Assembly: GCA_965220325.1 (NCBI GenBank)
Contig: OZ244821.1
Span: 1,179,428-1,243,427, forward strand
DNA from: Candidatus Poribacteria bacterium
GTDB taxonomy: Bacteria; Poribacteria; WGA-4E; WGA-3G
Direction of reading: 5' to 3'
Length of the DNA: 64,000 nt
Positions 815-61,446 of the stretch are shown here, piece by piece. The notes beneath the pieces were generated by a model. That model saw nothing but the letters and a program-made list of their open reading frames with translations. It had not been told where the DNA came from and did no database searches. Each line of letters begins with the position of its first letter. Position 1 is the stretch's first letter. A program made the translations under genes and the position numbers.

Positions 815-904
815 GTAGGTATTTGATAACGCAAGTTGCCAGGGCGATTTAGTTTTCGGTTTTGGCTTGGGTTTTCGTTTACATAAGTTGATGTTTTCTT
901 ATGA

Positions 905-986
905 AAGATCGCGAGCACAGCTCGCTCCTACAAGGGAGAAATATTTACATAGATAAAGTAAATATGTAAAACTAAGTACCCCTGCG
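905..986 (+). repeat. REP element copy (GATCGCGAGCACAGCTCGCTCCTAC hairpin followed by TTTACATAGATAAAGTAAATATGTAAA hairpin)
   Basis: The same roughly 80 bp unit recurs at about 14415, 21497, 26310 and 61180. It has a GTAG/CTAC tetranucleotide next to an imperfect palindrome, the classic REP architecture. It is preceded by a CAGGGCGATTTAGTTTTCGGTTTT module that is also seen at 6821 and 61113. Confidence 0.6.
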
Positions 987-1080: not shown

Positions 1081-1490
1081 AAAATACTTGAAACCCTCAT
1101 TGAAGGACGCAGAAATACCCGAGCAAAACACGAAAATCTGTTAGTAGCAACTTGGGTTATTTGATAGCAGGACTTACGCACTTTTGACGATATGATGCTC
1201 CGTTAGCGGGTAAACTCTCAAAAAACAGAGGCGTTCTCAGTGCACAGGAGACCAACGGTTTCCTATGGTACAAAAGACCCACAGGCTAACAGCCTATGGT
1301 ACAAAAGAGCAACTTGGGTTATTTGATAGTATAAAACCTGTCAATACCAATTACGCAGTTTTTCTGAAAGAAACGGGAAGTTACTTTTGGACTATCTTTT
1401 ATCGGGGTAGACGTTTCTAATAGATAAGGGAAAATGGCCCGCTTATTTTTTATGGAACGGTTCGTCAGATAGACAAGGGAGGGATATACA

Positions 1491-14101: not shown

Positions 14102-14407
14102 CTACACATCAGAACCGTTTTGTGGTACGCCGGGGGGCGGTTCTGTAAATTCCTCACTCCGCGCCGCCGCTTCTTTTCTTCGGCGATCCCATTCCACGAT
14201 TTCTTGATAAACTGCGGCCTTGCCTTCAGCAATGCCCTCGGCCTTGCCTTCAGCAATGCCCTCGGCTTTGGCAGCCTGAATCCGTTTTTCTCGCCTGTCA
14301 AGATACCAATCTGACAATAACATAATTACGTCAATGCCTCCTACTATCATTCCAGGATCATTCAATTCTCGATTTGGATATTGGTTTTGCTTTACGTAAG
14401 TGAACAC
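14102..14407 (-). CDS. hypothetical small protein with (AEGIAEGK) tandem repeats
   Basis: GTG start. C-terminal W..RRKEAA...E.F.EP.P tail is shared with 20812-21351. The N-terminal 16 codons are also found as a remnant at 21440-21497 next to a REP copy. Confidence 0.35.
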   Translation of the reverse strand: MFTYVKQNQYPNRELNDPGMIVGGIDVIMLLSDWYLDRREKRIQAAKAEGIAEGKAEGIAEGKAAVYQEIVEWDRRRKEAAARSEEFTEPPPGVPQNGSDV

Positions 14408-14414
14408 CCTTAGG

Positions 14415-14496
14415 AAAGATCGCGAGCGCAGCTCGCTCCTACAGGGGAGGAGTATTTACATAAACAAAGTGAATATGTAAAATTGAATGGTCCTGC
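14415..14496 (+). repeat. REP element copy
   Basis: AAAGATCGCGAGCGCAGCTCGCTCCTACAGGGGAGG...TTTACATAAACAAAGTGAATATGTAAA. Same family as 905-986. Confidence 0.6.
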
Positions 14497-14647: not shown

Positions 14648-14775
14648 AGTGCTCGCGATAAATATAACGACTCTTTTGTAGGAGCGAGCTGCGCTCGCGA
14701 TCTTCCTCATGCCATCGCGATCTTCCTCATGCCATCGCGATCTTCCTCATGCCATCGCGATCTTCCTCATTCCAT
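14648..14775 (-). repeat. inverted REP copy (TGTAGGAGCGAGCTGCGCTCGCGATC) plus a x4 tandem 20-mer (CATCGCGATCTTCCTCATGC) flanking the RAYT 3' end
   Basis: Reverse complement of the REP core, oriented opposite to the REP array on the other side of the RAYT gene. Confidence 0.55.
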
Positions 14776-15240
14776 CTCATATTTACATCGCCAAAATGGA
14801 TAATCCCGCGCAGCCTTTACCAATCCTGCTCTCACCGGGTTATGATAACAATATTCGATAATAGCGTTCAACGATTCATCCCGTCGAATACCGTGATCAT
14901 GGTAAGCAGGTTGCCAAATCGAACCGCTACGATCCAAACACGCATTAATCTGTTTCGCTGTGTGGCTTTTGAAGGACTGTATGAGTCTTGATAATGTTTG
15001 TTTACTGCCGAGTTGGATAACGGTGTGGATATGATCTGGCATCACACAGATACAAAACCATCTGAGTCGATCATTGGTTTCGAGCCAATCAAATGACTGA
15101 AAAATGATGTCAGCGATTTTGGGAGTTGCAAGCAGCGGTTTTTTCTTAAGTGTCGTAAGCGTGAGATAATAGTAGGTACCGGGTATGGAGTATCTGCCTT
15201 TACGGAGTTGTCGGTGTCCGCGGGTGGGTGTTCGTTGCAT
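14767..15240 (-). CDS. REP-associated tyrosine transposase (RAYT, IS200/IS605-like HuH transposase)
   Basis: 157 aa. HuH motif VMPDHIHTVIQL, SIWQPAYHDHGIR, and catalytic-Tyr region EYCYHNPVRAGLVKAARDYPFW, collinear with E. coli TnpA_REP. Flanked by inverted REPs. Confidence 0.9.
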   Translation of the reverse strand: MQRTPTRGHRQLRKGRYSIPGTYYYLTLTTLKKKPLLATPKIADIIFQSFDWLETNDRLRWFCICVMPDHIHTVIQLGSKQTLSRLIQSFKSHTAKQINACLDRSGSIWQPAYHDHGIRRDESLNAIIEYCYHNPVRAGLVKAARDYPFWRCKYEME

Positions 15241-15274: not shown

Positions 15275-15608
15275 GCCAAGATCGCGAGCACAGGGTCAAG
15301 ATCGCGAGCATAGTGCCAAGATCGCGAGCGACAAGAAACACCGTTTTTGCTTGGGCGTTTCTTGTAAGCAAAAACACTCGCTCCTACACAAGAGACGTTA
15401 GAATAATCGCGAGCACAGCTCGCTCCTACACAAGAGACGTTAGAATAATCGCGAGCACAGCTCGCTCCTACACAAGAGACGTTAGAATAATCGCGAGCAC
15501 AGCTCGCTCCTACACAAGAGACGTTAGAATAATCGCGAGCACAGCTCGCTCCTACACAAGAGACGTTAGAATAATCGCGAGCACAGCTCGCTCCTACACA
15601 AGAGGTGT
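15275..15608 (+). repeat. REP tandem array (about 7 units; five near-identical 42-bp units AATCGCGAGCACAGCTCGCTCCTACACAAGAGACGTTAGAAT)
   Basis: Direct tandem repeats with no spacers, so not CRISPR. The first units carry a 45-bp insertion in the hairpin loop identical to that in copy 21497. Confidence 0.65.
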
Positions 15609-15743
15609 TGAAGCATGTAAAAATGGTATAAGGCGCGAGTTGTTGGTCGAAACCGAAAGATTTTTTCGGAGAAAAAATCGTACCAACAACCAACAACCAA
15701 CAACCAACAACCAACAACCAATAACCCTTAAAAAAGCAAATAG

Positions 15744-19867: not shown

Positions 19868-20650
19868 TTTACTAATATTATACAAAATTAATTGTATTAA
19901 GTCAAATTTATTTGCGTTTTTTTGAATAAAAAACCATTTTTATCGGCAATTACACAAAATATTATCAATTTAATTAACAGTTAGCCGAAATTTACGAAAC
20001 TATATGCGTAGTAAACCCATTTATATTTTGTTTAATCGTGAATTATGTTTATTTTTTACCAAATACATTAATATTATACGAAATAAATTGTATTAAGTCA
20101 AATTTATTTGTGTTTTTTTTGAATATAATCGGATATTTCTCGGTTTTTTGGGGGCGTTTGGGGGATTTGTATTGCGTTTGGGTGGTATTTTGGAGGTGGT
20201 ACAAATACAAAGACCACAGGCTAACGGTCTCCTATGCTACAAAGATTCGGAATTTTTTATTGTTGTTTAGAGAGATGGTACAAATACAAAGACCACAGGC
20301 TAACGGTCTCCTATGCTACAAAGATAGCGTATCGTAGGTTGGGTTGAACGGATGCGACCAAACCGCTGGGAAGCTATAGGTTTGCACGTAGAAGCCGGTT
20401 CGGTTGGGAAACCGAACCTACCAGGACGGGGTCGGACCAGGACGGGATCGGAAGTGTGGGTAGGTTTTTAACCCGAAACACGCGCTGGATGCACACTCTT
20501 TTCAGGGTTCCCTAGGCCTTGAAACGTGATGCACGGCGCGTGTTGGCGGGTGTTTTTGTTTTCTTTGGAGGAGAATAACATCTTCCTCACACTTTAATTA
20601 TACGCTAAAATTTAAAATTAAGTCAAATTTATTTTGTTTTTTGAAAAGAT
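19868..20650. repeat. three copies of an AT-rich repeat (ATTATACRAAATNAATTGTATTAAGTCAAATTTATTTGYGTTTTTTTGAATA) in a non-coding AT-rich tract
   Basis: Copies at about 19868-19935, 20066-20135 and 20590-20650. No credible ORF in 19560-20800. Confidence 0.5.
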
Positions 20651-21407: not shown

Positions 21408-21496
21408 GGATTTTTTTATCAAGATTTTGATGCAGGGCCATTCAATTCTCGATTTGGATATTGGTTTTGCTTTACAGAGGTGAACATTCTTACGGA

Positions 21497-21621
21497 AAAT
21501 CGCGAGCGTGAAGAAACACCGTTTTTGCTTGGGCGTTTCTTAAGCAAAAACACTCGCTCCTACCGGGGAATCATATTCACAGATATAAAGTGAATAGGTA
21601 CAATTGAATGGCCCTGATAGT
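21497..21621 (+). repeat. REP copy with 45-bp hairpin-loop insertion
   Basis: CGCGAGCG[TGAAGAAACACCGTTTTTGCTTGGGCGTTTCTTAAGCAAAAACAC]TCGCTCCTAC...TTCACAGATATAAAGTGAATAGGTACA. The insert is itself a hairpin (GTTTTTGCTT/AAGCAAAAAC). Confidence 0.6.
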
Positions 21622-21866
21622 ATATTACTAAACTTTGGACAATTTTAGGTGCGATACACATGTCGCCCCGCTGGGGCTTAGACCTTGGGAGACCTGACGT
21701 TTCTATAAACATACCGCCCCGCTGGGGCTGCTCTTTAGTTCATTCGTGTTTATTTTCTTGTGAGTTGGGTTTGCATGAAAAACTTTTAGAAAAATCGGAA
21801 ATACTTCGGAAATAGGTCATGAACTCAACAGAAATTGTCCAAACTATAGTAGTATATTATCAAAAA
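21618..21866 (+). mobile_element. MITE-like element (about 250 bp) with terminal inverted repeats ACTAAACTTTGGACAATTTT / AAATTGTCCAAACTATAG and a paired-hairpin core
   Basis: Homologous over its whole length to 23735-23972 in the same orientation. The core is GCCCC-GCT-GGGGC x2. Confidence 0.55.
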
Positions 21867-23508: not shown

Positions 23509-23734
23509 CTACTTCAGTCGATGGCTATTGTCTTTTCTAAACCTCTATACTATCTTTGATAAAGCGAATATGTAAAACTATAACGGATTTCAAAATTAAT
23601 GAGACCCTTTACAAGCGGACGAGGGAACCTCGCCCCTACAAGGGGTGGTCTCGGCAATCACTGAAATGTCTCTTTAATTATTGACTTTACTATAAATGCC
23701 CCTGATGGCCATGCTTTTTTTCGCTTGACTTTAC

Positions 23735-24093: not shown

Positions 24094-25191
24094 ATGAAAA
24101 TTCGAGATATTAAAGTCTATCAAGTGGATCTGCCGCTTTATGAAGGCAGCTACAACTGGTCCGGCGGAAAATCTGTTTCCGTTTTCGACAGTACGATTGT
24201 CTCCGTTGAAACAGACGAAGGTATTACCGGCTACGGTGAAGTCTGTCCGTTGGGACCGTTCTATCTGCCTGCTTACGCCACCGGTGCACGTACCGGTATC
24301 GCTGAACTTGCACAGCACCTCATCGGTGAAGACCCGACGCAACTCCTCCCGCTCAACCGACAGATGGACATCGCACTCAAGGGGCATCCGTACGTGAAAT
24401 CTGCAATCGACATGGCGTGCTGGGATATCCTCGGGAAAGCTTCAAACGCATCTATCTGCACGCTTCTCGGTGGGCGGTATGGCGAGGACTTCATGCTCTA
24501 TCGCGCGATCTCACAGGAATCGCCTGACGAGATGGCGGCGAAGGTTGCAACTTACCGGGCGGAGGGGTACCGTAAATTCCAGTTGAAAGTCGGCGGGGAT
24601 CCAAATACCGATATCGAACGTATCCACGCTGTCGCCGAGTTGATGGAATCGGGAGATGTGCTGATCGCGGATGCAAACACGGGGTGGTTGATGCACCAAG
24701 CTGCTCGCGTCGTCCGAGGTGTGAGCGATGTGGATGTCTATATCGAGCAGCCCTGTCTCTCATACGAAGAGTGCCTCGCCATCCGTCAGCGGACCGACCA
24801 CCCCTTTGTTCTCGATGAGACCATCGACGGCATCCACGCCTTATTACGCGGTCATGCCGACCGGGCGATGGATGTTGTGAATATCAAGATTAGCAAATTC
24901 GGCGGATTGACCAAAGCGAAACTCGCCAGAGACCTCTGCGTTGAACTCGGCGTAGCGATGACGATTGAAGACAGCTGGGGCGGCGATATTACAACCGCCG
25001 CGATTGCGCATCTGGCACACAGCACACCGCCAGAATTCCTTTTCACAGCGACGGATTTCAACAGTTATGTCACTGTCAGCACGGCGGAAGGCGCGCCGCA
25101 ACGGGTTAACGGCAGGATGGCAGCGTCAACGCAACCAGGTTTGGGGATTACACCGAAGATGGGGGTGTTGGGTGAAGAGCGGAAGAGGTGA
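24094..25191 (+). CDS. mandelate racemase/muconate lactonizing enzyme family (enolase superfamily) protein
   Basis: MR/MLE N-terminal capping domain plus barrel with metal-ligand region. 365 aa. Confidence 0.8.
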
Positions 25192-25270
25192 AGAGGGAAG
25201 GATGGAAGGCGGAAAGATGGAAGAGGGGAGGATGGAAGACCGGAGGATGGAAGAGGGGAGGCGGGAAGTT

Positions 25271-26236
25271 ATGTCTATTCGGATTCTCTCTGCGTCTGAT
25301 GTCCGGGCGGCATTACCGATGCCGAAAGCAGTTGATGCGATGCGGTACGCCTACGGTCAACTGTCGGCAGGTAAGGCGATCGCACCGCCCCGGCAACATA
25401 TCTCCACCGATAAAGGCGTTACGCTCATCATGCCTGCCTATCTCCCCGAACAGAACGAGTTTGGCATCAAAGTCGTCTCCGTTTACGACGATAACCCGAA
25501 CCTCGACCTACCGCGTATCACCGCGACAGTCTTAGTGCTTGACCCGACGACAGGGGCACCAAAAGCGTTCATTGACGGCGGCAGTCTGACGGCTATCCGT
25601 ACAGGTGCTGGTGGCGGTGTAGCGGCGGACCTGCTCGCGCGGCAGGACGCGAAAACGGTCGGACTCTTCGGCGCGGGTGTACAAGCGAGATCACAGTTAC
25701 AGGCGGTGATGGCAGTCAGAGACATCACGCGCGTGAACCTGATCAGTCGGACGGAAGCCTCTGCCGAACGACTGTCCGCTGAGATTTCGGCGTGGCGGAA
25801 TGCACCGCGGGTCCATCTTGCCCGTCATCCGAAAGCGGTCGTCACCGACGCTGACATCGTTATCTGCGCGACGACATCGGCAACCCCGCTTTTTGATGGA
25901 AACGCCTTACAACCTGGGACGCATATCACAGCCGTCGGTACGTTCGTACCTGAGAAACGGGAGGTCGATACCACAACAATAAGACGGGCAGACCGGATTG
26001 TTGTTGACTCGCGTGAAGCCTGTTTAGAGGAAGCCGGGGATTTGATTATCCCAAATGCCAAAATTGACGCAGAAATCGGTGAGATCGTCAACGGCGATAA
26101 ACAGGGTCGCGAGTCGGACGCGGAAATCACGTTTTTCAAATCGGTCGGTGTAGCGGTGCAAGATGCGGTCGCCGGTGCAGCCGTGCTTGCAGCAGCAGAA
26201 GCAGCAGGGTTAGGCACCGTCATTGAAATGGATTGA
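25271..26236 (+). CDS. ornithine cyclodeaminase / mu-crystallin family protein
   Basis: MSIRILSASDVRAALPM...GSLTAIRTGAGGGVAADLLARQDAKTVGLFGAGVQARSQ is typical OCD. The track ORF from 24965 starts in GGAAGG repeats that lack coding character, so the start is placed at the ATG at 25271, preceded by GGAGG. Confidence 0.8.
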   Translation: MSIRILSASDVRAALPMPKAVDAMRYAYGQLSAGKAIAPPRQHISTDKGVTLIMPAYLPEQNEFGIKVVSVYDDNPNLDLPRITATVLVLDPTTGAPKAFIDGGSLTAIRTGAGGGVAADLLARQDAKTVGLFGAGVQARSQLQAVMAVRDITRVNLISRTEASAERLSAEISAWRNAPRVHLARHPKAVVTDADIVICATTSATPLFDGNALQPGTHITAVGTFVPEKREVDTTTIRRADRIVVDSREACLEEAGDLIIPNAKIDAEIGEIVNGDKQGRESDAEITFFKSVGVAVQDAVAGAAVLAAAEAAGLGTVIEMD

Positions 26237-26309
26237 TTAGGACTTACGCATGCGGCTCTTTCGTACCACAAACTTTATGAAGATTAAATAAATATTTGGG
26301 TAATCGTTA

Positions 26310-26388
26310 AAGATCGCGAGCGCAGCTCGCTCCTACAGGGAAGAAGTATTTACATAGATAAAGTGAATATGTAAACTAAATACCCCTA
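26310..26388 (+). repeat. REP element copy
   Basis: AAAGATCGCGAGCGCAGCTCGCTCCTACAGGGAAGAAGTATTTACATAGATAAAGTGAATATGTAAA, immediately 3' of the LamG-protein gene. Confidence 0.6.
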
Positions 26389-29144: not shown

Positions 29145-30511
29145 GGCAGTACAAACTTTCCGAGGATTTTCCGAACAGATGCCCCTGTCGCTGAAGGCAG
29201 GTTCCCCGCATTTCCGTGGAGCGTCTCATTCGCCAGAATCGCGAACGCGATCGCCTCCTTCGCATCCGCTGAGATACCAGAGGTGTTCACAGGTTCAACT
29301 GTCGTGTTTTCCAATACTTCGCTCAACCGTTGCATGAGGGTCTGATTGTGGACACCGCCGCCACTCACATAAAGCACGTCTATCGGATTTTGTCCCGCTA
29401 TAAATTGTGCGATGTAGCCGGTAATCGTTTGGACCGTCAACTCGGTCAGTGTCGCGATGCAGTCGTTATCTGAAAGTGTGCGCTTCCGGCAAGCTGTGAG
29501 ACATTCCATCGCATAATTGCGTCCAAACATCTCACGTCCAGTCGTTTTTGGCGGTGGCAGATGGAAAAACGGGTGCTTCAACCATTCGTCAATGATCGGT
29601 TGGTGCGGCGTACCCTGCGCGGCACGCTGCCCCGCTGCGTCATACCGTTCTGTCCCTTCCGTGATCTCTGTTATGACAGCGTCAATACACATATTGCCGG
29701 GCCCCGTATCCGCGGCACAGACAGTATCGAATGCGCCATTTGCCGGAAGCACCGTGAGATTCGCAATCCCGCCGATATTCAAGAGTCCGACTGTTTCAGT
29801 GCTGTTGTGGAACAGCAGATAATCTGGGTATGATACCAACGGTGCACCTTGTCCGCCTGCTGCCATATCCGCGACGCGGAAATCCGCTATCGTTGGAATC
29901 CCTGTTTCGTGTGCAATGACTGCAGGCTCCCCAATCTGCAATGTCGATGACAGGGTGGAAGGGTGGAAGGGTGGAAGGGTGGAAGGGATTGGAAGGGATT
30001 GGAAGGATGGAAGGGCGGAAGGATGGGGGGGATTGGAAGGGTGGATGGGTGGAAGGGTGGAAGGGATTGGAAGGGATTGGAAGGATGGAAGGGCGGAAGG
30101 ATGGAGGGGATTGGAAGGATGGAAGGGTGGAAGGGTGGAAGGGATGTTTGGGTCTTTCGGGAGGTGATGGATCGTTTGGCCGTGTGAACCGATGAGGTCA
30201 ATATCGCTGGTAGACATTTCGCTTTTTTGTAGGATGTGTTTAACTGCCTCAGCGAAGAGGTATCCGATATAGAAATTCATTTCACAGATGTCGTCAACAC
30301 GACCCGTATCGGGTTGACAGAGCGCAAGGATACGTTGTGGCACGCCAGATGGAAACGGAACAGTCTCAAAAGCGATCAGGTCTACTTTAGTTTCCAAACC
30401 GTGTCCGACAATTTCGACAATAGCAGCATCAATGCCGTCAACTGAGGTACCGGACATTAACCCGATAACCAATTTTTTATCTTTCTTGAGAAGTTCAAAA
30501 AAATGTTTCAT
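29141..30511 (-). CDS. anmK: anhydro-N-acetylmuramic acid kinase with an in-frame roughly 65 aa Pro-rich repeat insertion
   Basis: GLMSGTSVDGIDAAIVEI..., GSHGQTIHH..., TLQIGEPAVIAHETGIPTIADFRVADMAAGGQGAPLV are collinear with E. coli AnmK. The insert TLPPFHPSNPLHPSALPSFQSLPIPS... is encoded by CCTTCC repeats. Confidence 0.85.
   Translation of the reverse strand: MKHFFELLKKDKKLVIGLMSGTSVDGIDAAIVEIVGHGLETKVDLIAFETVPFPSGVPQRILALCQPDTGRVDDICEMNFYIGYLFAEAVKHILQKSEMSTSDIDLIGSHGQTIHHLPKDPNIPSTLPPFHPSNPLHPSALPSFQSLPIPSTLPPIHPSNPPHPSALPSFQSLPIPSTLPPFHPSTLSSTLQIGEPAVIAHETGIPTIADFRVADMAAGGQGAPLVSYPDYLLFHNSTETVGLLNIGGIANLTVLPANGAFDTVCAADTGPGNMCIDAVITEITEGTERYDAAGQRAAQGTPHQPIIDEWLKHPFFHLPPPKTTGREMFGRNYAMECLTACRKRTLSDNDCIATLTELTVQTITGYIAQFIAGQNPIDVLYVSGGGVHNQTLMQRLSEVLENTTVEPVNTSGISADAKEAIAFAILANETLHGNAGNLPSATGASVRKILGKFVLP
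29938..30172. repeat. (GGAAGG[GA]TGG)n microsatellite block lying inside the anmK reading frame
   Basis: GGGTGGAAGGGTGGAAGGGTGGAAGGGATTGGAAGG... on the plus strand. Same repeat family as 6337-6400, 25192-25268, 33215-33300 and 38805-38850. Confidence 0.6.
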
Positions 30512-55842: not shown

Positions 55843-56139
55843 ATAATTTATTATTGAGCACTGTGTATCGTTGCCTTTAAGGTAACTGTAACAGATAACG
55901 GTAACTGTAACAGATAACGTGAATTTGATAAATACTTAGGGCAGCCGCATTTGCGCTTAAAGTCCTCCTGATAAGGGGATTTAGGGGGTGTTTTTGCTGG
56001 GGTGTTTCTTAAATCACTAAAACTGCCCTTCTTTTGCCCAATTTGCGCCTGTTCTGAATTCTAAGTTCGCGTTAACAGGTAAATGGGTTTTATGATGATA
56101 GAAGGTTTCCATCACAGCAAAAACACAATTCAGTTAATA

Positions 56140-56262
56140 TAATGATGTTAGGACAATTTTAAAAATTTATGTATTTTACAATAAATTGTCCCAACATCAG
56201 TAAATTATACTCTGCTTCAATTGATAAGTCAAATTAAATTTTCAGAAAATTACTTAACTTGT
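56140..56262 (-). promoter_or_regulatory. duplicated promoter-operator module: consensus sigma70 promoter (TTGACT-N17-TATAAT, minus strand) immediately followed by a 55-bp palindrome GATGTTGGGACAAT-N-ATTGTCCTAACATC
   Basis: Minus-strand reading TTGACTTATCAATTGAAGCAGAGTATAAT, with -10 at about 56204-56209 and -35 at about 56227-56232. About 90% identical to 60893-61022. Upstream of the CCP gene. Confidence 0.55.
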
Positions 56263-56283
56263 TAGGCTGTGAGCTTGGAAAGC

Positions 56284-59200
56284 CTATTTCCGTATCAACA
56301 GTTTCCGGGTCGCAAAATAATTGCCCGCTTTGAGGGTGTAGAAATACACGCCTGTCGCAACCTTTTCACCGAGCTGATTCCGTCCATCCCAATGCGCCGC
56401 CTTGCTCCGACTTTGGTAGATACCCGCAGGCTGGTGCCCCAATCGCAACTTCCGCACGATCCGCCCCCGCACATCGTAGATCGTTAGCGTAACTTCTGCC
56501 GGTTTGGCGAGCTGATACGGTATCCACGTTTCAGGGTTGAACGGGTTCGGGAAGTTAGTCAAGAGTGCAGTATTATCAGGAATCACAAGAGATGTTTCAA
56601 GGGATGGCGCAGCACCTACGACATCCGTGACATTGATGGTAACGGTAATACTATCAGTCCCACCCTTCCCATCAGAGACAGCGACTTTGACCGTATAAGT
56701 GCTCTTCGTTTCAGCATCAAGTTCAGCGTTAGTTTGGAGTTGACCGGATGATTTAACAATACGAAACGAATCCGCATCCGTGCCACCGAGATGATAAGTG
56801 AGTGTATCCCCGGTATCCTCATCTGTGGCAGCGACCACACTGCCGATGTTTGTACCGGAAGCGGTGTTTTCTGCTACAGAACGGGTTGTGCTATCACCAT
56901 CGCTAAACACAGGGGCGTTATTATTTGCTACTGCAGGAATTGTAATATCTAAGGTTAAACCTGGATGACCTTCAATTACCTCAATTGCTGCCTTGAGTCG
57001 ACGGAGGGGACCATAATCCAAAATCTGATTCCCCGACAGACCAAGTTCTGTGAGTGCGGTCAAGTTTTCAAGCGCAGAAACATCGCTTATGGAATTGTTA
57101 TTCAGAGCGAGTTCTGTGAGTGCGGTCAAGTTTTCAAGGGCGGATATATCACTGATCCAATTGTTAGACAGAATGAGTCGTTTCAGTGAAGTCAAGTTTT
57201 CAAGGGCGGATATATCGCTTATGGGATTCCAATGCAGATTGAGGTCTGTGAGTGCGGTCAAGTTTTTAAGGGCGGATATATCGCTTATGGAATTCCAATC
57301 CATCTTGAGGTTTGTGAGTGCGGTCAAGTTTTTAAGGGCGGATATACTGCTTATGGAATTACGAGACAGATCGATCCAATTCAGTGCGGTCAAGTTTTTA
57401 AGGGCGGATATATCGCTTATGGAATTGTAACTCAGAAAGAGCTGTTTCAGTGAAGTCAAGTTTTTAAGTGTGGATATATCGCTTATGGAATTATTATGCA
57501 GATATAACCATTCCAGTGCGGTCAAGTTTTTAAGGGCGGATATATCGCTTATGGGATTGAAACCCAGAAAGAGCCATTTCAGTGAAGTCAAGTTTTTAAG
57601 GGCGGATATATCGCTTATGGAATTGTGTTTCAGAACGAGGTTTGTCAGTGAAGTAAATCCATCAAAATCACCAACCTTTAGTGCCGTTATTCTTCTGTAG
57701 TCAATGCTAAGGGAAGTTATTGCAGCAAGATGGGCTGCAGTCACATCGGCGGCATTATTAACATTCGGTACCGCAGCAACAATTGCATCTCGCACCTGTC
57801 GTGTGCGTTCATTGACCGGAGTAAATTCGGATACATCCGTCACATTTATGGTAACGGCGATGCTATCACTCCCGCCGCTGCCATCAGAGACAGACACTGA
57901 CACGGAATAAGACGACTTGCTTTCATAATCCAAGGCGGCACTCGTCTGCAGTTGCCCAGAGGTCGAAACAATACGAAACGAACTTGCATCCGTGCCCCCC
58001 AAAGTATACGTGAGTGTATCGCCGCTATCCGTATCTGTCGCAGCAATAGCACTGCCGATGTTTCTGCCGGAGGGAGTGTTCTCTGCGATGGAGCGCGTCG
58101 TCTCGGTGCCATCGTTGAAGACAGGTGCGTTGTTAGGAGCCGCACTCACTTGAATTGAGAACGTCAGCGTGGCTGAAAGTGTTCCATCACTCGCCGTATA
58201 GGTATAGGTCGCTGAAGCTGTCTCAGTTGTAGGTGTTCCAGAAAGCGTGCGCGTTGAAGCCGTAAAGGTCAACCCGGCAGGGAGTGCTGGTGTCACCGTG
58301 TATGTGATCGTATTGCCAGCATCAACATCGGTTGCTTCAGGCAAGGCCACCGACGTGATTGCTGTTCCTGCGGTGGCAGAAATATTACTGATGCTTGCTC
58401 CCGCACTGAACGCTGGTGCCTCGTTGACGTTCGTGACATTAATCGTGACGGCGATGCTATCACTCCCGCCGTTTTTATCAGAAACAGATACTGACACAGA
58501 ATAAGACGACTTGCTTTCGTAGTTTAGGGCAGCACTAGTTCGGAGTTGCCCGGATGTGCCGACAATACTGAACAAGGAGGCATCTGCGCCACCTAAAGTA
58601 TAGGTGAGTGTGTCGCTGGTATCCGCATCTGTCGCAGCAACGGGACTTCCGATGTTTGTACCTGAACGGGTGTTCTCAGCAACAGACCGAGTAGTGCTGG
58701 TGCCATCGTTGAATGCGGGGGCGCGGTTCTCATTCACATCTGTAATATTGATGGTGACGAGGACGCTATTGACAAGACCCCCGCTATCCGTCGCGCGGAC
58801 AGCCAGATTGTTGTAAGTGCGCTTCGTTTCATAGTCAAGAGCCGCGCGGGTTTGCAGCTGCCCTGTCCTTGCGTCAATACGAAATACGTTTTTATCGCCC
58901 CGCTGAAGCGAATAGGTCAGTGTATCGCCACTATCGGGGTCTGTGGCCTGGAAGGGCCTGCCGATGTTTCTGCCGGAAGCCGTGTTCTCTGGGACGGAGA
59001 GTGTGACCCTTCCAAAAGTGCTGAAACTCGGTTTCTCATTGACATCTGTAACACTGATCGTGACGGCGATGCTATCTGTGCCGCCATTGCCGTCGGAGAC
59101 AGAAACCGTGACAGCGTAGGAGTTGTCTGCTTCATGGTTCAGGGCAACATTGGTTTGCAGCTGCCCGGAGGTGGAAACAATGCGAAACGAGGACGCATCC

Positions 59201-60672
59201 GTGCCACCAAGCGTATACGTTAGTGTGTCGCCGGTATCCACATCTGTCGCAGCAATAGCACTCCCTATGTTTGTACCTAAAGCGGTGTTCTCAGCAACAG
59301 ACCGCGTCGTGCTAGTGCCTTCACTGAATGCGGGAGCACGATTCTCATTGACATCTGCAACGTTGACGGTGACGGCGATACTATCACTCCCACCATTACC
59401 ATCAGAAACAGACACCGTCACGGAATAAGATGATTTCGTTTCATAATCTAACGCAGCACTCGTCTGCAGCTGTCCTGATGTAGAAACAATGCTAAATGAA
59501 GACGCATCCGTACCACCAAGCGTATACGTTAGTGTGTCGCCGGTATCCGCATCTGTCGCAGCAATAGCACTCCCGATGTTTGTGCCAGATGCCGCGTTCT
59601 CCGCAACAGACCGCGTCGTGCTGGTGCCGCTTGTGAACACGGGTGCGCGGTTCTCACTGACATCCGTGACCTTGATGGTGACGAGGACGCTATTGACAAG
59701 ACCCCCGCTATCCGTCGCGCGGACGGCCAGATTGTTGTAAGTGCGCTTCGTTTCATAGTCAAGTGCCGCGTGGGTTCGCAGCTGCCCTGTATTTGCGTCA
59801 ATACGAAACGCTTTCTTATCGCCCCGCTGCAGCGAATAGGTCAGTGTATCCCCGCTATCGGGGTCTGTTGCTTGGAAGGGAGCACCGATATTTGTGCCGG
59901 AAGCCGTGTCCTCTTCGACGGAGAGTGTGACCCTACCCGAAATGTTGAAACTCGGTTTCTCATTGACATCTGTAACATTGATCGTGACGGCGATGCTATC
60001 TGTGGCGCCATTACTATCGGAGACAGAAATCGATACCGAGTAGGACGACTTGCTTTCATAGTTTAGGGCAGCACTGGTTCGGAGTTGGCCCGATGTGCTG
60101 ACAATACTGAACGATGCCGCATCCGTGCCACCCAAAGTATAGGTGAGTGTGTCGCCGGTATCCGCATCTGTTGCAGCAATAGGATTCCCGATGTTTCTGC
60201 CAGAAGCCGTGTTCTCAGCAACAGATCGCGTGGCACTGTCGCCATCGGTGAAGGTCGGAGCGTTGTTTCCAGCCGTTTCATCAACATCCGTGACATTGAT
60301 TGTGACGCTAATGACACGTCTACCCCCATTGCCATCGTCGACAAAAATGGCAAACGAGTAGACGCTCTTCGTTTCATAGTCCAAGGGTGCTTTGGTGCGG
60401 ATTTGACCGGTATTGCTGTCGAGAGTAAATGCTGTTCCATCCAGCCACCCCTTAGTATAGGTGAGTGTATCGTTATCTGCATCCGTTGCAGCGACCGGTG
60501 CGCCGATGTTTACCCCGGCCGGTGTGTTCTCTGCAATAGAGCGTATTGTGCGGTTACCGTCTATGAATACAGGTGCACTGTTCTCATCGGCATAACCTAA
60601 TATATGTGTGCAAAAAATTATAAAAGCGGTTAGGAAAATTGATACGATATACTTTTTGTTTTTAAATAGCAA
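56284..60672 (-). CDS. giant secreted adhesin: about 12 cadherin-like repeats, a central leucine-rich-repeat block, and a T9SS-type C-terminal sorting domain
   Basis: Signal peptide. Repeated APVF.DG..TTRSVAEN...NIG..IAATD.D.GDTLTY.LGG.D...F.I....GQL.T..ALDYE modules. LRRs (LTSLK.LFL..N.ISDISALKNLTAL...). The C-terminus NFPNPFNPETWIPYQLAKPAEVTLTIYDVRGRIVRKL...WDGRNQLGEKVATGVYFYTLKAGNYFATRKLLIRK matches the Por/T9SS CTD. Confidence 0.8.
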   Translation of the reverse strand: MLFKNKKYIVSIFLTAFIIFCTHILGYADENSAPVFIDGNRTIRSIAENTPAGVNIGAPVAATDADNDTLTYTKGWLDGTAFTLDSNTGQIRTKAPLDYETKSVYSFAIFVDDGNGGRRVISVTINVTDVDETAGNNAPTFTDGDSATRSVAENTASGRNIGNPIAATDADTGDTLTYTLGGTDAASFSIVSTSGQLRTSAALNYESKSSYSVSISVSDSNGATDSIAVTINVTDVNEKPSFNISGRVTLSVEEDTASGTNIGAPFQATDPDSGDTLTYSLQRGDKKAFRIDANTGQLRTHAALDYETKRTYNNLAVRATDSGGLVNSVLVTIKVTDVSENRAPVFTSGTSTTRSVAENAASGTNIGSAIAATDADTGDTLTYTLGGTDASSFSIVSTSGQLQTSAALDYETKSSYSVTVSVSDGNGGSDSIAVTVNVADVNENRAPAFSEGTSTTRSVAENTALGTNIGSAIAATDVDTGDTLTYTLGGTDASSFRIVSTSGQLQTNVALNHEADNSYAVTVSVSDGNGGTDSIAVTISVTDVNEKPSFSTFGRVTLSVPENTASGRNIGRPFQATDPDSGDTLTYSLQRGDKNVFRIDARTGQLQTRAALDYETKRTYNNLAVRATDSGGLVNSVLVTINITDVNENRAPAFNDGTSTTRSVAENTRSGTNIGSPVAATDADTSDTLTYTLGGADASLFSIVGTSGQLRTSAALNYESKSSYSVSVSVSDKNGGSDSIAVTINVTNVNEAPAFSAGASISNISATAGTAITSVALPEATDVDAGNTITYTVTPALPAGLTFTASTRTLSGTPTTETASATYTYTASDGTLSATLTFSIQVSAAPNNAPVFNDGTETTRSIAENTPSGRNIGSAIAATDTDSGDTLTYTLGGTDASSFRIVSTSGQLQTSAALDYESKSSYSVSVSVSDGSGGSDSIAVTINVTDVSEFTPVNERTRQVRDAIVAAVPNVNNAADVTAAHLAAITSLSIDYRRITALKVGDFDGFTSLTNLVLKHNSISDISALKNLTSLKWLFLGFNPISDISALKNLTALEWLYLHNNSISDISTLKNLTSLKQLFLSYNSISDISALKNLTALNWIDLSRNSISSISALKNLTALTNLKMDWNSISDISALKNLTALTDLNLHWNPISDISALENLTSLKRLILSNNWISDISALENLTALTELALNNNSISDVSALENLTALTELGLSGNQILDYGPLRRLKAAIEVIEGHPGLTLDITIPAVANNNAPVFSDGDSTTRSVAENTASGTNIGSVVAATDEDTGDTLTYHLGGTDADSFRIVKSSGQLQTNAELDAETKSTYTVKVAVSDGKGGTDSITVTINVTDVVGAAPSLETSLVIPDNTALLTNFPNPFNPETWIPYQLAKPAEVTLTIYDVRGRIVRKLRLGHQPAGIYQSRSKAAHWDGRNQLGEKVATGVYFYTLKAGNYFATRKLLIRK

Positions 60673-60892
60673 TATCTAAGCTCCTTTATCGGTATTCAAT
60701 GAAGGTTAGCAATCCCAGTCCTTATCTGCTTTCAAGAGCGGTTAAATTGACATTCAGCGGTATCCGATCCGGTTGTTTTGATTGAAATCAGATACTATAG
60801 ATATACTTATATCCTTTTTTAGATAAAAATGAATATAGTACTTTATGATGCGATAAATAGAGGATATCTATCACAGGAAAAGGACACAACTT

Positions 60893-61022
60893 AGTTAACG
60901 TAAATGATGTTGGGACAGTTTCAAAAATTTATGTATTTTACAACAAATTGACCCAACATCAGTAAATTATACTTTGCTTCAATTGATAAGTCAAATTAAA
61001 TTTTTAGAAAACTACCTAATTC
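60893..61022 (-). promoter_or_regulatory. second copy of the promoter-operator module, upstream of the giant adhesin gene
   Basis: Minus-strand TTGACTTATCAATTGAAGCAAAGTATAAT, then GATGTTGGGTCAAT...ACTGTCCCAACATC. The predicted TSS is about 285 nt upstream of the start codon. Confidence 0.55.
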
Positions 61023-61179
61023 GCCTAAGAAACGTCTAGTAAATTCAGAACGTCATATCAGACTTCACAACAAAAAATTTCTACCAAAATAGGTATACGT
61101 CTCTATCTTTTCTCAGGACAATTTAGTTTTCGGTTTCGATCTTGGTTTTGGTTGACAGATGTTAACGTTTAGATGCCAG

Positions 61180-61326
61180 GTCGCGAGCGTGAAGAAATCC
61201 GCAGAAATACCCAGGCAATACGCAGAAATACCCAAGCAAATACACCCCAAGCAAATACACTCGCTCCTACCGGGGAAGCGTATTCACATAGATAAAGTGA
61301 ATATGTAAAACTAAACACCCCTGCTA
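61180..61326 (+). repeat. REP copy with a 70-bp loop insertion made of CAGAAATACCCARGCAAATAC repeats
   Basis: GTCGCGAGCG[insert]CACTCGCTCCTACCGGGGAAGCGTATTCACATAGATAAAGTGAATATGTAAAACTAAACACCCCTG. Confidence 0.6.
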
Positions 61327-61446
61327 TCTTTTCTCTGAAAACCTTGAATTAGAGAGAGATTTTTGATATAATAATAAATTAACAGTAGTCGTGTTCGTTC
61401 GTATAAGAATAGATTCTACAATCCAGTTTAGGAGGCTCCGAATAGC

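What the first reader, a model, noticed from the sequence alone, without database searches (positions are those of the whole stretch)
61180..61326. REP hairpin loop is an insertion hotspot: three REP copies carry different 45-70 bp inserts exactly in the loop
- **Canonical REPs.** Those at 905, 14415 and 26310 have a 3-nt loop, GCGAGC-ACA/GCA-GCTCGC.
- **Loop-insert copies.** At 15300 and 21497 the loop is replaced by an identical 45-bp insert that is itself a hairpin, GTTTTTGCTT...AAGCAAAAAC. At 61190 the loop holds a different 70-bp insert of CAGAAATACCCARGCAAATAC repeats. The stem halves (CGCGAGCG / CACTCGCTC) stay intact around the inserts.
- **Interpretation.** This suggests secondary elements target the REP hairpin, or nested REP-like evolution.
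- **Composite unit.** At two loci (830-905 and 61113-61180) the REPs sit inside a larger composite, a CAGGGCGATTTAGTTTTCGGTTTT module followed by the REP and a TTTACATA...TATGTAAA hairpin. A third CAGGGCGATTTAGTTTT module at about 6821 has no REP.
Basis: seen in the sequence. Interest (0 to 1): 0.5.

Follow-up and report, generated by a model that had tools for sequence, protein, structure and literature searches.

The report
Mini-cassette nested inside REP hairpin loops
In this sponge-symbiont (Candidatus Poribacteria) genome, a 22-base CA-rich cassette sits, always in one orientation, in the tip of small repeated hairpins (REPs) that ride inside miniature transposons; near-identical strains differ in whether they have it, so the reported loop insertion is real, but the three inserts are one family rather than different elements.

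Summary
The hairpin is a true GTAG-tagged REP. Its tyrosine transposase (RAYT) lies in the window at 14767-15240, flanked by REP arrays.

Two of its four copies (B and D) have empty sites in related strains.

The three loop inserts are one family. All are built from a 22-nt unit, U = AAGAAACACCCMAGCAAAAACA.
- **61189-61259:** U subunits expanded in tandem.
- **21508-21552 and 15330-15376:** U split by an inverted copy of itself.

Across Poribacteria, 12 of 51 REPs carry U-type loops, always in the same orientation. They are scattered over the MITE tree.

U also sits in the loops of three unrelated hairpins. Two orthologous hairpins differ by U between strains that are 95-98% identical.

My best reading is that a tiny cassette is copied into single-stranded hairpin loops, by REP-arm-guided strand exchange or template switching, possibly with RAYT. 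MITE transposition then amplifies it. The copying enzyme is unknown.

This is a new variant of a known kind: REPs as insertion targets, and cyanobacterial SDR-like tiny repeats.

The parts
61114..61323 (+). MITE copy D (210 bp). Terminal inverted repeats are CAGGACAATTTAGTTTT and AAAACTAAACACCCCTG. It lies between two divergent genes: cadherin/LRR 56284-60672 (-) and an ORF starting at 61448 (+).
   Evidence: The site is empty in the related strains L044 and L045. L047 has the same element. The ORF from 61448 is open to the window end.
61103..61113 (.). Left target-site duplication of MITE D, CTATCTTTTCT. The right copy is at 61324-61334.
   Evidence: The empty site in L044/L045 reads CTCTACCTTTCCTCTGAAAA with a single copy.
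61183..61270 (+). REP1 hairpin of MITE D. Left arm GCGAGC is at 61183-61188. Right arm plus tag CTCGCTCCTAC is at 61260-61270 (GTAG on the minus strand).
61189..61259 (+). 71-nt loop cassette. It is U-family, built of a-type (C/A)AGAAAYNCS and b-type (C)MAGCAAAWAC(A) subunits in tandem.
   Evidence: With this loop the REP stem is not in the predicted minimum-energy fold (z +1.5).
21433..21616 (+). MITE copy C (184 bp, TTCAATTC terminal-repeat subfamily). Its REP1 is at 21502-21563. The 45-nt loop (21508-21552) is the U 5' half, then reverse-complement U, then the U 3' half.
   Evidence: It folds with a 13-bp inner hairpin at -13.2 kcal/mol. The whole region is absent or replaced in L041.
15324..15387 (+). 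RAYT-proximal REP1 with a 47-nt loop (15330-15376) of the same nested U/inverted-U form.
   Evidence: The orthologous REP in L041 has the short ACAG loop, and the RAYT-proximal REPs in L038, L039 and L040 are also short, so this is a recent gain.
14767..15240 (-). RAYT gene (REP-associated tyrosine transposase, 157 aa). HUH motif is PDHIHTV. The Tyr motif is YCYHNPVRAGL.
   Evidence: Pfam Y1_Tnp. NCBIfam NF047646 at 136.8 bits against a cutoff of 80. PDB 4er8 TnpA_REP at E 3e-8. Translation.
15279..15609 (+). REP array upstream of RAYT: two 20-bp half-REP repeats, the long-loop REP, then five short-loop REPs with a 42-bp period.
   Evidence: L041 has only two REP units here.
14650..14770 (-). 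REP array downstream of RAYT: one short-loop REP1 (GTAGGAGCGAGCTGCGCTCGCGATC, 14678-14702) plus four 20-bp half-REP repeats, inverted relative to the upstream array.
840..984 (+). MITE copy A (145 bp) with short-loop REP1 (907-931). The 10-bp target duplication CGCAAGTTGC is at 830-839 and 985-994.
14353..14495 (+). MITE copy B (143 bp) with short-loop REP1. The 9-bp target duplication is CTATCATTC / CTATGATTC.
   Evidence: The site is empty in L041.
26230..26388 (+). Chimeric element. The left half comes from a second MITE family (terminal repeat TTAGGACTTACGCA). The right half comes from the CAGG(G) MITE. They are joined exactly at a short-loop REP1 (26312-26336).
20397..20421 (+). REP3 hairpin GGTTCGGTT-GGGA-AACCGAACC-TAC with a short loop. 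The orthologous hairpin in L041 carries a U unit in the loop.
55990..56009 (-). U copy outside any REP (AGAAACACCCCAGCAAAAAC). It lies inside a ~205-nt segment that is absent from L044 and L045.
1111..1130 (+). Degenerate U-like copy outside any REP (AGAAATACCCGAGCAAAACA).

Best explanation
**What it is.** The region holds three nested layers of small repeats in a Candidatus Poribacteria genome.
1. A ~145-bp MITE, moved by a DDE-type transposase (terminal inverted repeats, 9-11-bp target duplications).
2. At the MITE centre, a GTAG-tagged REP hairpin that belongs to the RAYT encoded at 14767-15240.
3. In the apical loop of some REPs, a CA-rich cassette built from a 22-nt unit, U = AAGAAACACCCMAGCAAAAACA.

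**How it most likely works (inferred).**
- U is copied, strand-specifically, into the single-stranded loops of extruded hairpins.
- Between REP1 copies, the whole loop including its junction signature is copied from one REP to another. The conserved arms (GATCGCGAGC / CTCGCTCCTAC) act as guides. The copying could be template switching at a stalled fork or RAYT-type single-strand cleavage and rejoining.
- In other hairpins, U enters at short microhomologies.
- Once resident, the cassette changes by gain or loss of its 10-11-nt subunits and by inverted self-copying.
- MITE transposition then spreads it passively.

**Shown versus inferred.** The anatomy, family distribution, orientation bias, polyphyly and strain-level presence/absence are shown. 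The copying mechanism and any role of RAYT are inferred.
For: **REP and RAYT identity**
- NCBIfam equivalog, PDB TnpA_REP match, HUH and Tyr motifs.
- RAYT is flanked by inverted REP arrays here and in L038-L041.

**MITE identity**
- About 20 of 32 copies show a recognisable ~10-bp duplication of the flanking sequence.
- Empty sites exist for copy B in L041 and copy D in L044/L045.

**One cassette family**
- All 12 long loops among 51 REP1 copies contain U forward. Short loops are ACAG in 31 copies and GCAG in 5.
- The GTAG-proximal junction ends in the U 3' terminus (AAAAACA, AAATACA or AAAAATA) directly before CTCGC, without the G. The other junction carries a variable 1-3-nt filler.
- MITE lengths are bimodal at 141-145 and 164-166 nt, with a tail to 230 nt.

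**Recurrent gain or loss**
- Long-loop copies sit at six or more places in the MITE tree, each beside a short-loop sister. For example, L026 (58 nt) and L027 (4 nt) are in one genome.
- Tandem REP arrays mix units with and without U (L049, L072).

**Orthologous polymorphisms between strains 95-98% identical**
- The RAYT-proximal REP1 is long in the window and short in L041. Outgroups L038-L040 are short, so this is a gain.
- The REP3 loop is short in the window and carries U in L041.

**Preference for loops**
- Of 31 exact U copies in metagenome contigs, 20 are in REP1 loops, 3 (L059, L064, L068) in the GTAGGGG...CCCCTAC hairpin, 1 in REP3 and 2 in a 13-bp palindrome.
- Short-loop forms of REP1, REP3 and GTAGGGG...CCCCTAC hairpins exist without U.

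**The REP as an exchange point**
- The element at 26230-26388 is a chimera of two MITE families joined at REP1.
- The nested U/inverted-U form is shared by two REPs with unrelated flanks in this genome only.
Against: - No enzyme or intermediate is demonstrated.
- U has no terminal repeats, no hairpin of its own and no clear target duplication, only ambiguous 3-nt repeats (ACA, ACC).
- RAYT cleavage specificity for this REP is unknown.
- Arm homology of 10-11 nt is short for RecA-type conversion.
- Several U copies have no recognisable stem around them (L050, L051/L057/L075, L076, window 55990), so loops are preferred but not obligatory.
- The direction of the REP3 change (gain or loss) has no outgroup.
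- The 71-nt loop at 61189-61259 is stable between two strains with one substitution, so it is not hypervariable at that timescale.
- The REP census loci were fetched through a pattern in the MITE right half, so solo REPs are under-sampled.
Confidence: 0.55

Rival explanations
1. U is a true, very small non-autonomous transposon. An enzyme encoded elsewhere would excise or copy it and insert it on its own into single-stranded loops, as proposed for the 21-27-nt SDR elements of Nostoc. REP arms would play no guiding role.
For: - U has a sharp 22-nt unit with a constant 3' end in very different contexts.
- It occurs in the loops of four unrelated stems and also outside stems.
- Its orientation in GTAG-tagged hairpins is strictly one-way.
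- The REP3 site is polymorphic and the flanks show only 3-nt microhomology.
Against: - U has no terminal inverted repeats, no subterminal hairpins and no consistent target duplication.
- The left junction is ragged, with a variable 1-3-nt filler.
- All REP1 occurrences share the same missing G. This is expected if one founder allele was copied from REP to REP, and not if U inserted de novo each time.
- At the orthologous REP1 the change is a replacement, not a clean insertion.
- No candidate enzyme was identified.
Confidence: 0.2
2. U is a functional motif kept by selection, either a protein-binding site or an RNA loop displayed on a stem. Phased A-tracts every 10-11 nt would suit a nucleoid protein, as the IHF-binding L motif does in E. 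coli BIMEs. On this view the variety of stems reflects selection for loop presentation rather than mobility.
For: - The 22-nt sequence is conserved across many Poribacteria species-level genomes.
- Subunit periods are 10, 15 and 21 nt.
- The same loop sits on different stems.
- Copies lie in intergenic regions near promoter-like sites.
Against: - Most copies of each stem family lack U.
- U comes and goes between strains 95-98% identical.
- The 71-nt version abolishes the predicted REP hairpin.
- No Rfam family matches.
- Function and mobility are not mutually exclusive, so this reading does not explain how U reaches new loops.
Confidence: 0.15
3. The long loops are purely local products, arising from replication slippage, hairpin extension or random divergence of individual REPs. 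No sequence would be shared or transferred between loci.
For: - The 71-nt loop is internally repetitive.
- Subunit numbers vary between copies from 1 to about 8.
- The nested inverted copy looks like a fold-back template switch.
Against: - The same 22-nt sequence occurs 31 times exactly in metagenome contigs and in over 10 genomes.
- It occurs in unrelated hairpins and outside hairpins.
- Chance expectation is 0 in shuffles.
- Slippage explains the expansion of U but not its arrival.
Confidence: 0.03
4. The long-loop form is ancestral. REP1 would originally have been two arms around U, and short-loop REPs would be deletion derivatives.
For: - Long-loop REPs are widespread across Poribacteria and flank RAYT genes in some strains (window 15324-15387; L048).
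- Loss by conversion from abundant short copies is mechanistically as easy as gain.
Against: - Short loops make up 76% of copies and dominate in every MITE clade.
- RAYT-flanking REPs are short in L038, L039, L040 and L041.
- The near-identical REP of Pseudomonas has a 3-nt loop.
- U also sits in hairpins unrelated to REP1.
Confidence: 0.07

Closest known systems
REP / RAYT systems (REPtrons, REPINs), as described for Pseudomonas and Enterobacteria and surveyed as GTAG-tagged REPs (PMC3116915, PMC3733652)
   Same: - A short GC-rich palindrome ends in GTAG, and many copies are extragenic.
- A RAYT with HUH and Tyr motifs is flanked by inverted REPs.
- The stem and tag (GCGAGC ... CTCGCTCCTAC) are the same as in a Pseudomonas REP (L008, L013, L016, L020); the Pseudomonas loop is AAG or AGG rather than ACAG/GCAG.
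- Loop variants of up to 27 nt within one REP family are already reported (PMC3733652).
   Different: - The REPs here are singletons at MITE centres, or direct tandem arrays, rather than inverted REPIN doublets.
- The long loops are not self-complementary GC-rich extensions. They are a CA-rich cassette that also exists outside REPs.
- The phylum is Poribacteria, for which I found no REP or RAYT report.
Bacterial MITEs with empty and filled sites (for example Nezha in Anabaena/Nostoc and Chunjie in Geobacter; PMC3184786)
   Same: - The element is 130-230 bp and non-coding.
- It has 17-20-bp terminal inverted repeats and 9-11-bp direct target repeats.
- Sites are filled or empty between close relatives.
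   Different: - It carries a RAYT-type REP at its centre, and that REP in turn carries a further cassette.
- The parent insertion sequence was not identified.
Insertion sequences that target REPs (ISPpu9, ISPpu10, ISPsy8, ISPa11, ISRm22 in PMC1525189; IS1397 inserting in the loop of E. coli palindromic units, from my own knowledge)
   Same: REP hairpins serve as specific insertion hot spots, and for IS1397 the loop itself is the target.
   Different: Those elements are 1-2-kb insertion sequences with their own transposase, terminal repeats and target duplications. Here the occupant is 22-114 nt, non-coding, and has neither terminal repeats nor a clear duplication.
Small dispersed repeats (SDR1-8) of Nostoc punctiforme, 'very small mobile repeated elements' (Elhai et al. 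2008, Genome Res 18:1484). This paper is not held in the library, so the comparison rests on my memory of it.
   Same: - Units are 21-27 nt, too small to encode anything, and dispersed.
- They are found nested inside MITEs, hairpins and tandem short repeats.
- They were recognised through presence or absence in otherwise conserved sequences.
   Different: - The sequence is unrelated and the phylum is different.
- U has no predicted secondary structure of its own, whereas SDR4-6 were reported to share one.
- U is tied to GTAG-tagged REP loops and to a RAYT-bearing genome.
BIMEs of E. coli (mosaics of palindromic units with short extra motifs, one of which binds IHF; from my own knowledge) and the minisatellite-bearing MITE of Porphyromonas gingivalis (PMC4596501)
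   Same: - REPs are combined with other short motifs into mosaics.
- A variable tandem repeat sits inside a MITE.
   Different: - In BIMEs the extra motifs lie between palindromic units, not inside the hairpin loop.
- The P. gingivalis repeat has no link to a REP or RAYT.

Membership tests
REP / RAYT (REPtron) | A short imperfect palindrome (20-40 bp) with a terminal GTAG tag. | tested here: met
   GTAG-GAGCGAGC-TGY-GCTCGCGATC on the minus strand. The DNA fold is -6.7 kcal/mol with z -3.0.
REP / RAYT (REPtron) | Many dispersed, mostly extragenic copies. | tested here: met
   12 full copies in the 64-kb window and 51 in 33 Poribacteria loci plus the window.
REP / RAYT (REPtron) | A cognate Y1 (HUH) transposase of the RAYT type. 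| tested here: met
   NCBIfam NF047646 at 136.8 bits against a cutoff of 80, Pfam PF01797, and PDB 4er8 at E 3e-8. The HIH and YxxHxNP motifs are present.
REP / RAYT (REPtron) | The RAYT gene is flanked by its REPs in inverted orientation. | tested here: met
   Window 14678-14702 (-) and 15324-15609 (+). L038-L041 have the same layout.
REPIN | Two REPs in inverted orientation form one long hairpin as the mobile unit. | tested here: not met
   Dispersed copies are single REPs at MITE centres. Arrays are direct tandem repeats.
REP / RAYT (REPtron) | RAYT binds and cleaves the REP single strand. | not testable with these tools
   This needs biochemistry.
MITE | Terminal inverted repeats. | tested here: met
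   CAGGRNNATTYARTT(Y)T at both ends of four window copies and of 32 aligned copies in total. The pattern gives 13 matches against 2.0 expected.
MITE | Target-site duplication. | tested here: met
   9-11-bp direct repeats flank copies A, B and D, and about 20 of the 32 aligned copies show one. Copy C has none.
MITE | Small and non-coding. | tested here: met
   129-230 bp. Only spurious 49-aa ORFs cross copy D.
MITE | Evidence of movement, meaning filled versus empty orthologous sites. | tested here: met
   Copy B is absent from L041 and copy D is absent from L044/L045. Each empty site holds a single copy of the target.
MITE | A parent insertion sequence with matching terminal repeats. | tested here: inconclusive
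   No terminal-repeat pair 0.4-4 kb apart that encloses a transposase was found in about 630 kb held. Ends of CAGGG with 8-10-bp repeats recall the ISAs1 family, from my memory only.
REP-targeting insertion sequences (IS1397, ISPpu9/10 type) | The occupant of the REP encodes a transposase and has its own inverted repeats and target duplication. | tested here: not met
   The inserts are 24-114 nt, CA-rich, and have no ORF, terminal repeats or consistent duplication.
SDR-like very small mobile repeats (Elhai 2008) | A discrete dispersed unit of about 21-27 nt. | tested here: met
   The 22-nt unit occurs exactly 31 times in metagenome contigs. 13 near-copies were counted (23 listed per locus) in 350 kb against 0 expected.
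SDR-like very small mobile repeats (Elhai 2008) | Presence or absence inside otherwise conserved sequences, including MITEs. | tested here: met
   L026 versus L027, window REP1 versus L041, and window REP3 versus L041.
SDR-like very small mobile repeats (Elhai 2008) | A shared secondary structure of the unit itself (reported for SDR4-6, as I recall). | tested here: not met
   U is CA-rich with no self-complementarity. The 71-nt array folds worse than shuffles.

The most novel reading that the evidence does not exclude
Poribacteria may harbour an undescribed class of about 22-nt 'loop-seeking' mobile cassettes. These would insert strand-specifically into the single-stranded apical loops of GTAG-tagged REP hairpins and other palindromes. 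The REP-associated tyrosine transposase would mobilise them in trans by cleavage at the arm/loop boundary. The result would be a three- to four-level hierarchy in which each layer sits at the apex of the previous one: MITE centre, REP, U, inverted U. If true, this would be the first evidence that a RAYT moves something other than REPs or REPINs. It would also offer a mechanism for 'too small to be a transposon' repeats such as the cyanobacterial SDRs.
Probability: 0.2. Interest if true: 0.75.

Novelty: new variant of a known kind. Interest (0 to 1): 0.55.

Why it matters
How REPs and other very small repeats spread is still largely inferred, and RAYT activity in vivo has never been tied to a concrete product.

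This locus offers a natural marker, a recognisable 22-nt cassette inside the hairpin loop, and it does several useful things:
- It moves between hairpins on the timescale of strain divergence.
- It is strictly oriented relative to the GTAG tag.
- It has one sharp junction and one ragged junction.

That makes specific models testable with long-read strain collections or with a purified RAYT. The models are single-strand cleavage at the arm/loop boundary, and template switching at stalled hairpins.

The finding also documents REP/RAYT and MITE systems in an uncultivated sponge-symbiont phylum. In addition, it shows REPs acting as joints between different MITE families.

For practical work, the cassette and the MITE insertions are strain-level markers for Poribacteria. 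They are also a likely cause of assembly breaks.

Tried and rejected
- **Cyanobacterial origin.** I first suspected Nostoc-type MITEs or SDRs because of GATCGC motifs and heptamer repeats. I rejected this: T9SS, cadherin, LRR, Fic and WD40 genes are present, and all related loci are Candidatus Poribacteria.
- **Exact look-ups of window proteins.** The aconitase ORF, the RAYT and P0001 were not on record. I had to go through homologues and cluster members instead.
- **Known RNA family.** Rfam gave no match at gathering thresholds over the whole window.
- **Parent insertion sequence of the MITE.** None was found in the sequence held.
- **Orthologue of MITE C.** In L041 the region is replaced by unrelated repeats, so the comparison is uninformative.
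- **Hypervariability of the 71-nt loop.** It differs by only one substitution in L047.
- **Target-site duplication for U.** I found only ambiguous 3-nt repeats (ACA in REP1, ACC in REP3). I do not treat these as a duplication.
- **Replication-strand bias.** GC skew in the window is too weak to assign leading and lagging strands.
- **Papers not held.** Elhai et al. 2008 and the IS1397 paper could not be read, so those comparisons rest on memory.
- **A long ORF downstream of MITE D.** It seemed absent only because it runs off the window end. It starts at 61448.
Full report
**1. What is at the coordinates**

The stretch 61114-61323 is a 210-bp element bounded by inverted repeats, CAGGACAATTTAGTTTT and AAAACTAAACACCCCTG. 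An 11-bp direct repeat, CTATCTTTTCT, flanks it at 61103-61113 and 61324-61334.

The left arm GCGAGC is at 61183-61188. The right arm plus tag, CTCGCTCCTAC, is at 61260-61270. A 71-nt CA-rich loop at 61189-61259 separates them.

Tandem Repeats Finder reports periods of 10, 21 and 15 nt inside the loop.

The element sits between two divergently oriented genes. One is a 1462-aa cadherin/LRR protein at 56284-60672 on the minus strand. The other is an ORF that starts at 61448 and stays open to the window end. Sigma-70-like sites lie on either side of the element.

**2. The hairpin is a genuine REP, and its transposase is in the window**

The short form, GATCGCGAGC-RCA-GCTCGCTCCTAC, occurs 12 times in the window. 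On the other strand it reads GTAG-GAGCGAGC-TGY-GCTCGCGATC. That is the GTAG-tagged format surveyed in PMC3733652.

ORF 14767-15240 (minus strand, 157 aa) is a REP-associated tyrosine transposase (RAYT).
- It hits Pfam Y1_Tnp.
- It matches the NCBIfam equivalog NF047646 at 136.8 bits against a cutoff of 80.
- It matches the E. coli TnpA_REP structure 4er8 at E 3e-8.
- It has an HIH motif and a YCYHNPVRAGL motif.

REP arrays flank the gene in inverted orientation with the GTAG ends distal. Relatives L038 to L041 show the same layout. The REP does not form inverted REPIN doublets.

**3. The 'composite unit' is a MITE**

The pattern CAGGRNNATTYARTTYTCG gives 13 matches in the window against 2.0 expected. 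These define four complete copies:

| Copy | Coordinates | Length | Target duplication |
|---|---|---|---|
| A | 840-984 | 145 bp | CGCAAGTTGC |
| B | 14353-14495 | 143 bp | CTATCATTC / CTATGATTC |
| C | 21433-21616 | 184 bp | none seen |
| D | 61114-61323 | 210 bp | CTATCTTTTCT |

A scan of one genome per species returned 37 loci. Thirty-three are Candidatus Poribacteria or uncultured sponge-associated MAGs. Four are Pseudomonas, whose REP has the same stem and tag and differs only in the loop.

About 20 of the 32 aligned MITE copies have a recognisable ~10-bp duplication of the flanking sequence.

Two copies have empty sites in close relatives.
- Copy B is absent from L041, which is 95-98% identical, and a single CTATCATTC remains there.
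- Copy D is absent from L044 and L045, which are 91-94% identical.

The carrier is therefore moved by a DDE-type transposase, not by the RAYT. The parent insertion sequence was not found.

**4. The three inserts are one family**

The sequence between GCGAGC and CTCGC in each long-loop copy is as follows.

| Position | Loop sequence |
|---|---|
| 15330-15376 | GAC AAGAAACACC [GTTTTTGCTTGGGCGTTTCTTGT] AAGCAAAAACA |
| 21508-21552 | GTG AAGAAACACC [GTTTTTGCTTGGGCGTTTCTT] AAGCAAAAACA |
| 61189-61259 | GTG AAGAAATCCG CAGAAATACCC AGGCAATACG CAGAAATACCC AAGCAAATACACCCC AAGCAAATACA |

The simplest form appears in other genomes, for example GAC AAGAAACACCCAAGCAAAAACA in L003. This defines a 22-nt unit, U = AAGAAACACCCMAGCAAAAACA.

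The bracketed segments are the reverse complement of U, placed in the middle of U. The 71-nt loop is U with its two 10-11-nt halves multiplied.

In the locus set gathered without regard to the loop, 51 REP1 copies split into 39 short loops and 12 long loops.
- Short loops are ACAG in 31 copies and GCAG in 5.
- Long loops measure 24 to 114 nt.
- All 12 long loops contain U in the same orientation.
- In every long copy the U 3' terminus (AAAAACA, or AAATACA / AAAAATA in variants) directly abuts CTCGC, and the G of GCTCGC is missing.
- The other junction carries a variable 1-3-nt filler: GAC, ATG, GTG, GCG, ATT, AT, CT or GA.

MITE lengths cluster at 141-145 and 164-166 nt, with a tail to 230 nt.

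**5. The cassette comes and goes**

In a neighbour-joining tree of 32 MITE copies with the loop removed, long-loop copies fall in at least six places. Each has a short-loop neighbour.

L026 (58-nt loop) and L027 (4-nt loop) come from the same 6-Mb contig. They are nearly identical outside the loop.

Tandem REP arrays contain units with and without U, as in L049 and L072.

Two orthologous comparisons with L041 are the most direct evidence.
- **RAYT-proximal REP1.** It has the 47-nt loop in the window but ACAG in L041. The equivalent REPs in L038, L039 and L040 are also short, so the window allele is a recent gain. The change replaces ACAG with the long loop and removes the G. It is not a clean insertion.
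- **REP3 hairpin.** This different GTAG-tagged hairpin, GGTTCGGTT-GGGA-AACCGAACC-TAC at 20397-20421, is short in the window. In L041 it carries GGAAACCCCCCAGCAAAAAC in its loop.

By contrast, the 71-nt loop of copy D is the same in L047 apart from one substitution. It is real, and stable at that scale.

**6. The cassette prefers hairpin loops but is not confined to REP1**

An exact search for U in metagenome contigs gave 31 copies on 29 contigs. Most come from one assembly (MKWU01).

| Context | Copies |
|---|---|
| REP1 loops (including the REP on the 3' side of a RAYT gene in L048) | 20 |
| Loop of a GTAGGGG...CCCCTAC hairpin (L059, L064, L068) | 3 |
| Followed by CCCCTAC but with no GTAGGGG arm upstream (L065) | 1 |
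| REP3 loop, nested inside another module (L056) | 1 |
| Loop of the 13-bp palindrome TTAACCATCAACT / AGTTGATGGTTAA (one locus) | 2 |
| No evident stem | the rest |

Short-loop versions of REP1, REP3 and GTAGGGG...CCCCTAC hairpins exist without U. The stems therefore pre-exist and U is the addition.

In the window, U-like copies outside REPs lie at 55990-56009 and 1111-1130.

**7. Structure**

| Version | Predicted ssDNA fold |
|---|---|
| Short REP | -6.7 kcal/mol, z -3.0 |
| 71-nt loop (copy D) | REP stem absent from the minimum-energy fold, z +1.5 |
| Nested U/inverted-U (copy C) | 13-bp inner hairpin, -13.2 kcal/mol |

Plain U arrays therefore weaken the REP hairpin, and the inverted self-copy restores pairing.

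**8. Mechanism**

The following points are shown:
- a discrete unit;
- strict orientation relative to the GTAG tag;
- one sharp junction and one ragged junction;
- a polyphyletic distribution;
- strain-level gain;
- a preference for loops;
- REPs acting as joints, since 26230-26388 is a chimera of two MITE families fused at REP1.

From these I infer that U is copied into single-stranded hairpin loops.

The constant missing G, and fillers shared within a genome, suggest that among REP1 copies whole loops are copied from REP to REP. The 10-11-nt arms would guide the copying, either through template switching at stalled hairpins or through RAYT-type cleavage and rejoining.

Entry into other stems uses only microhomology, such as ACC at REP3. 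MITE transposition then multiplies whichever allele a MITE carries.

I put about 0.55 on this package. The rivals are as follows.

| Rival | Confidence |
|---|---|
| Independent tiny transposon | 0.2 |
| Selected binding or presentation motif (not exclusive of the best explanation) | 0.15 |
| Ancestral long form with deletions | 0.07 |
| Purely local slippage | 0.03 |

**9. Comparison with what is known**

- REPs as insertion hot spots are established for full-size insertion sequences (PMC1525189).
- REP families with several loop formats, and REPs sitting inside longer palindromes, are described (PMC3733652).
- MITEs with filled and empty sites are standard (PMC3184786).
- The nearest conceptual precedent is the 21-27-nt SDR elements of Nostoc (Elhai et al. 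2008). I could not read that paper here and cite it from memory.
- I found no paper linking Poribacteria with REP, RAYT, REPIN or MITE, and no Rfam family matched.

I therefore rate this a new variant of a known kind. The layers are individually familiar. What is not familiar is a 22-nt oriented cassette that occupies REP loops and turns over between strains.

Noticed in passing
window 15279-15609 versus L041 2150-2290; L039 versus L040: REP copy number changes between close strains. The 42-bp REP array upstream of RAYT has six REPs in the window and two in L041. In L040 the REP inside a MITE is tandemly duplicated relative to L039, and the downstream array has three copies against two.
   Followed up: partly
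window 56258-61113, with direct repeats at 56130-56257 and 60905-61030: The whole 1462-aa cadherin/LRR/T9SS-tail gene, plus a second copy of a ~130-bp promoter-like segment, is absent from the related strains L044 and L045. It is present in L047. This is a gene-sized insertion or deletion bounded by a direct repeat.
   Followed up: partly
window 26230-26388; also TAGGACTTACGCA at 6309, 6763 and 26238: A second MITE family has terminal repeats TTAGGACTTACGCA and also carries REP1 at its centre (L002, L062). The window copy is a chimera: its left half comes from this family and its right half from the CAGG(G) MITE, joined at the REP.
   Followed up: partly
window 6821-6900: A CAGGGCGATTTAGTTTT end is followed by different internal sequence and a REP3 hairpin (GGTTCGGTT-AGGA-AACCGAACC-TAC). 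No right end is recognisable. Other elements with the same ends but other interiors occur in L007, L017 and L018, and contain TTTCGCAGCA tandem repeats.
   Followed up: partly
L008, L013, L016, L020 (Pseudomonas karstica, Pseudomonas sp. GM49): The Pseudomonas REP, TCGCGAGC-AAG-CTCGCTCCTAC (AGG in one copy), has the same stem and GTAG tag as the Poribacteria REP1 and differs only in the loop. This could reflect shared RAYT specificity, horizontal transfer or convergence. The RAYT relationship was not examined.
   Followed up: no
window 55906-56112: A ~205-nt segment that holds a free U copy is absent from L044 and L045. It has GGGCAG...CTGCCC inverted repeats and ends in ...CAGCAAAAACACAATT, a U-like subunit at its edge.
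   Followed up: no
window 1010-1080, 21650-21730, 23611-23640: Further small hairpin repeat families are present: CACTCC-TAC-GGAGTG and CACCCC-TAC-GGGGTG; GCCCC-GCT-GGGGC; and a second GTAG-tagged REP, GGACGAGG-GAA-CCTCGCCCCTAC. The genome is unusually rich in nested small repeats.
   Followed up: no
L012 5551-5670; L056 3287-3380; L002 2135 and 6392: Hairpin loops also hold other modules. One is a GGATTTAGTCTGGGGTTAGACTAAATCC hairpin plus TTCCTTGTATTACATTGCAAAAACACC inside a REP1 loop (L012); the TTCCTTGTATTACATTGCAAAAACACC part (with a diverged version of the hairpin) also occurs outside REPs in L003. Another is a 37-nt module, TGGAATGCAGATCGCATTTGGGTGAGTACACCGCAAA, in REP3 loops, which in L056 itself contains U and another hairpin.
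   Followed up: partly
L072 about 1560-1620: One REP unit within a tandem array has both arms changed in a compensatory way: GTGAGC...GCTCAC instead of GCGAGC...GCTCGC. This suggests pairing is maintained, or that the palindrome is corrected arm against arm.
   Followed up: no
window 840-984, 14353-14495, 21433-21616, 26312-26388, 61114-61323: All MITE copies, and 11 of 12 REP1 copies, in the 64-kb window point the same way. The exception is the one downstream of RAYT. This may be a replication-strand bias, but GC skew is too weak to tell.
   Followed up: partly
window 859-878 (- strand), inside MITE A left arm: The GT-rich left subterminal arm of MITE A, GGTTTTGGCTTGGGTTTTCGT, resembles the reverse complement of U, GTTTTTGCTTGGGTGTTTCTT. 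U in the loop could therefore pair with the MITE arm. Whether this reflects common origin or shared low complexity is unclear.
   Followed up: no
window 15688-15730, 6800-6818, 25166-25266, 29948-30197, 20904-21043, 13269-13342: Several short tandem repeats are present: CAACAAC heptamers next to the REP array, GGAAGG-type 8-15-nt repeats, and 12- and 21-nt repeats inside ORFs.
   Followed up: no
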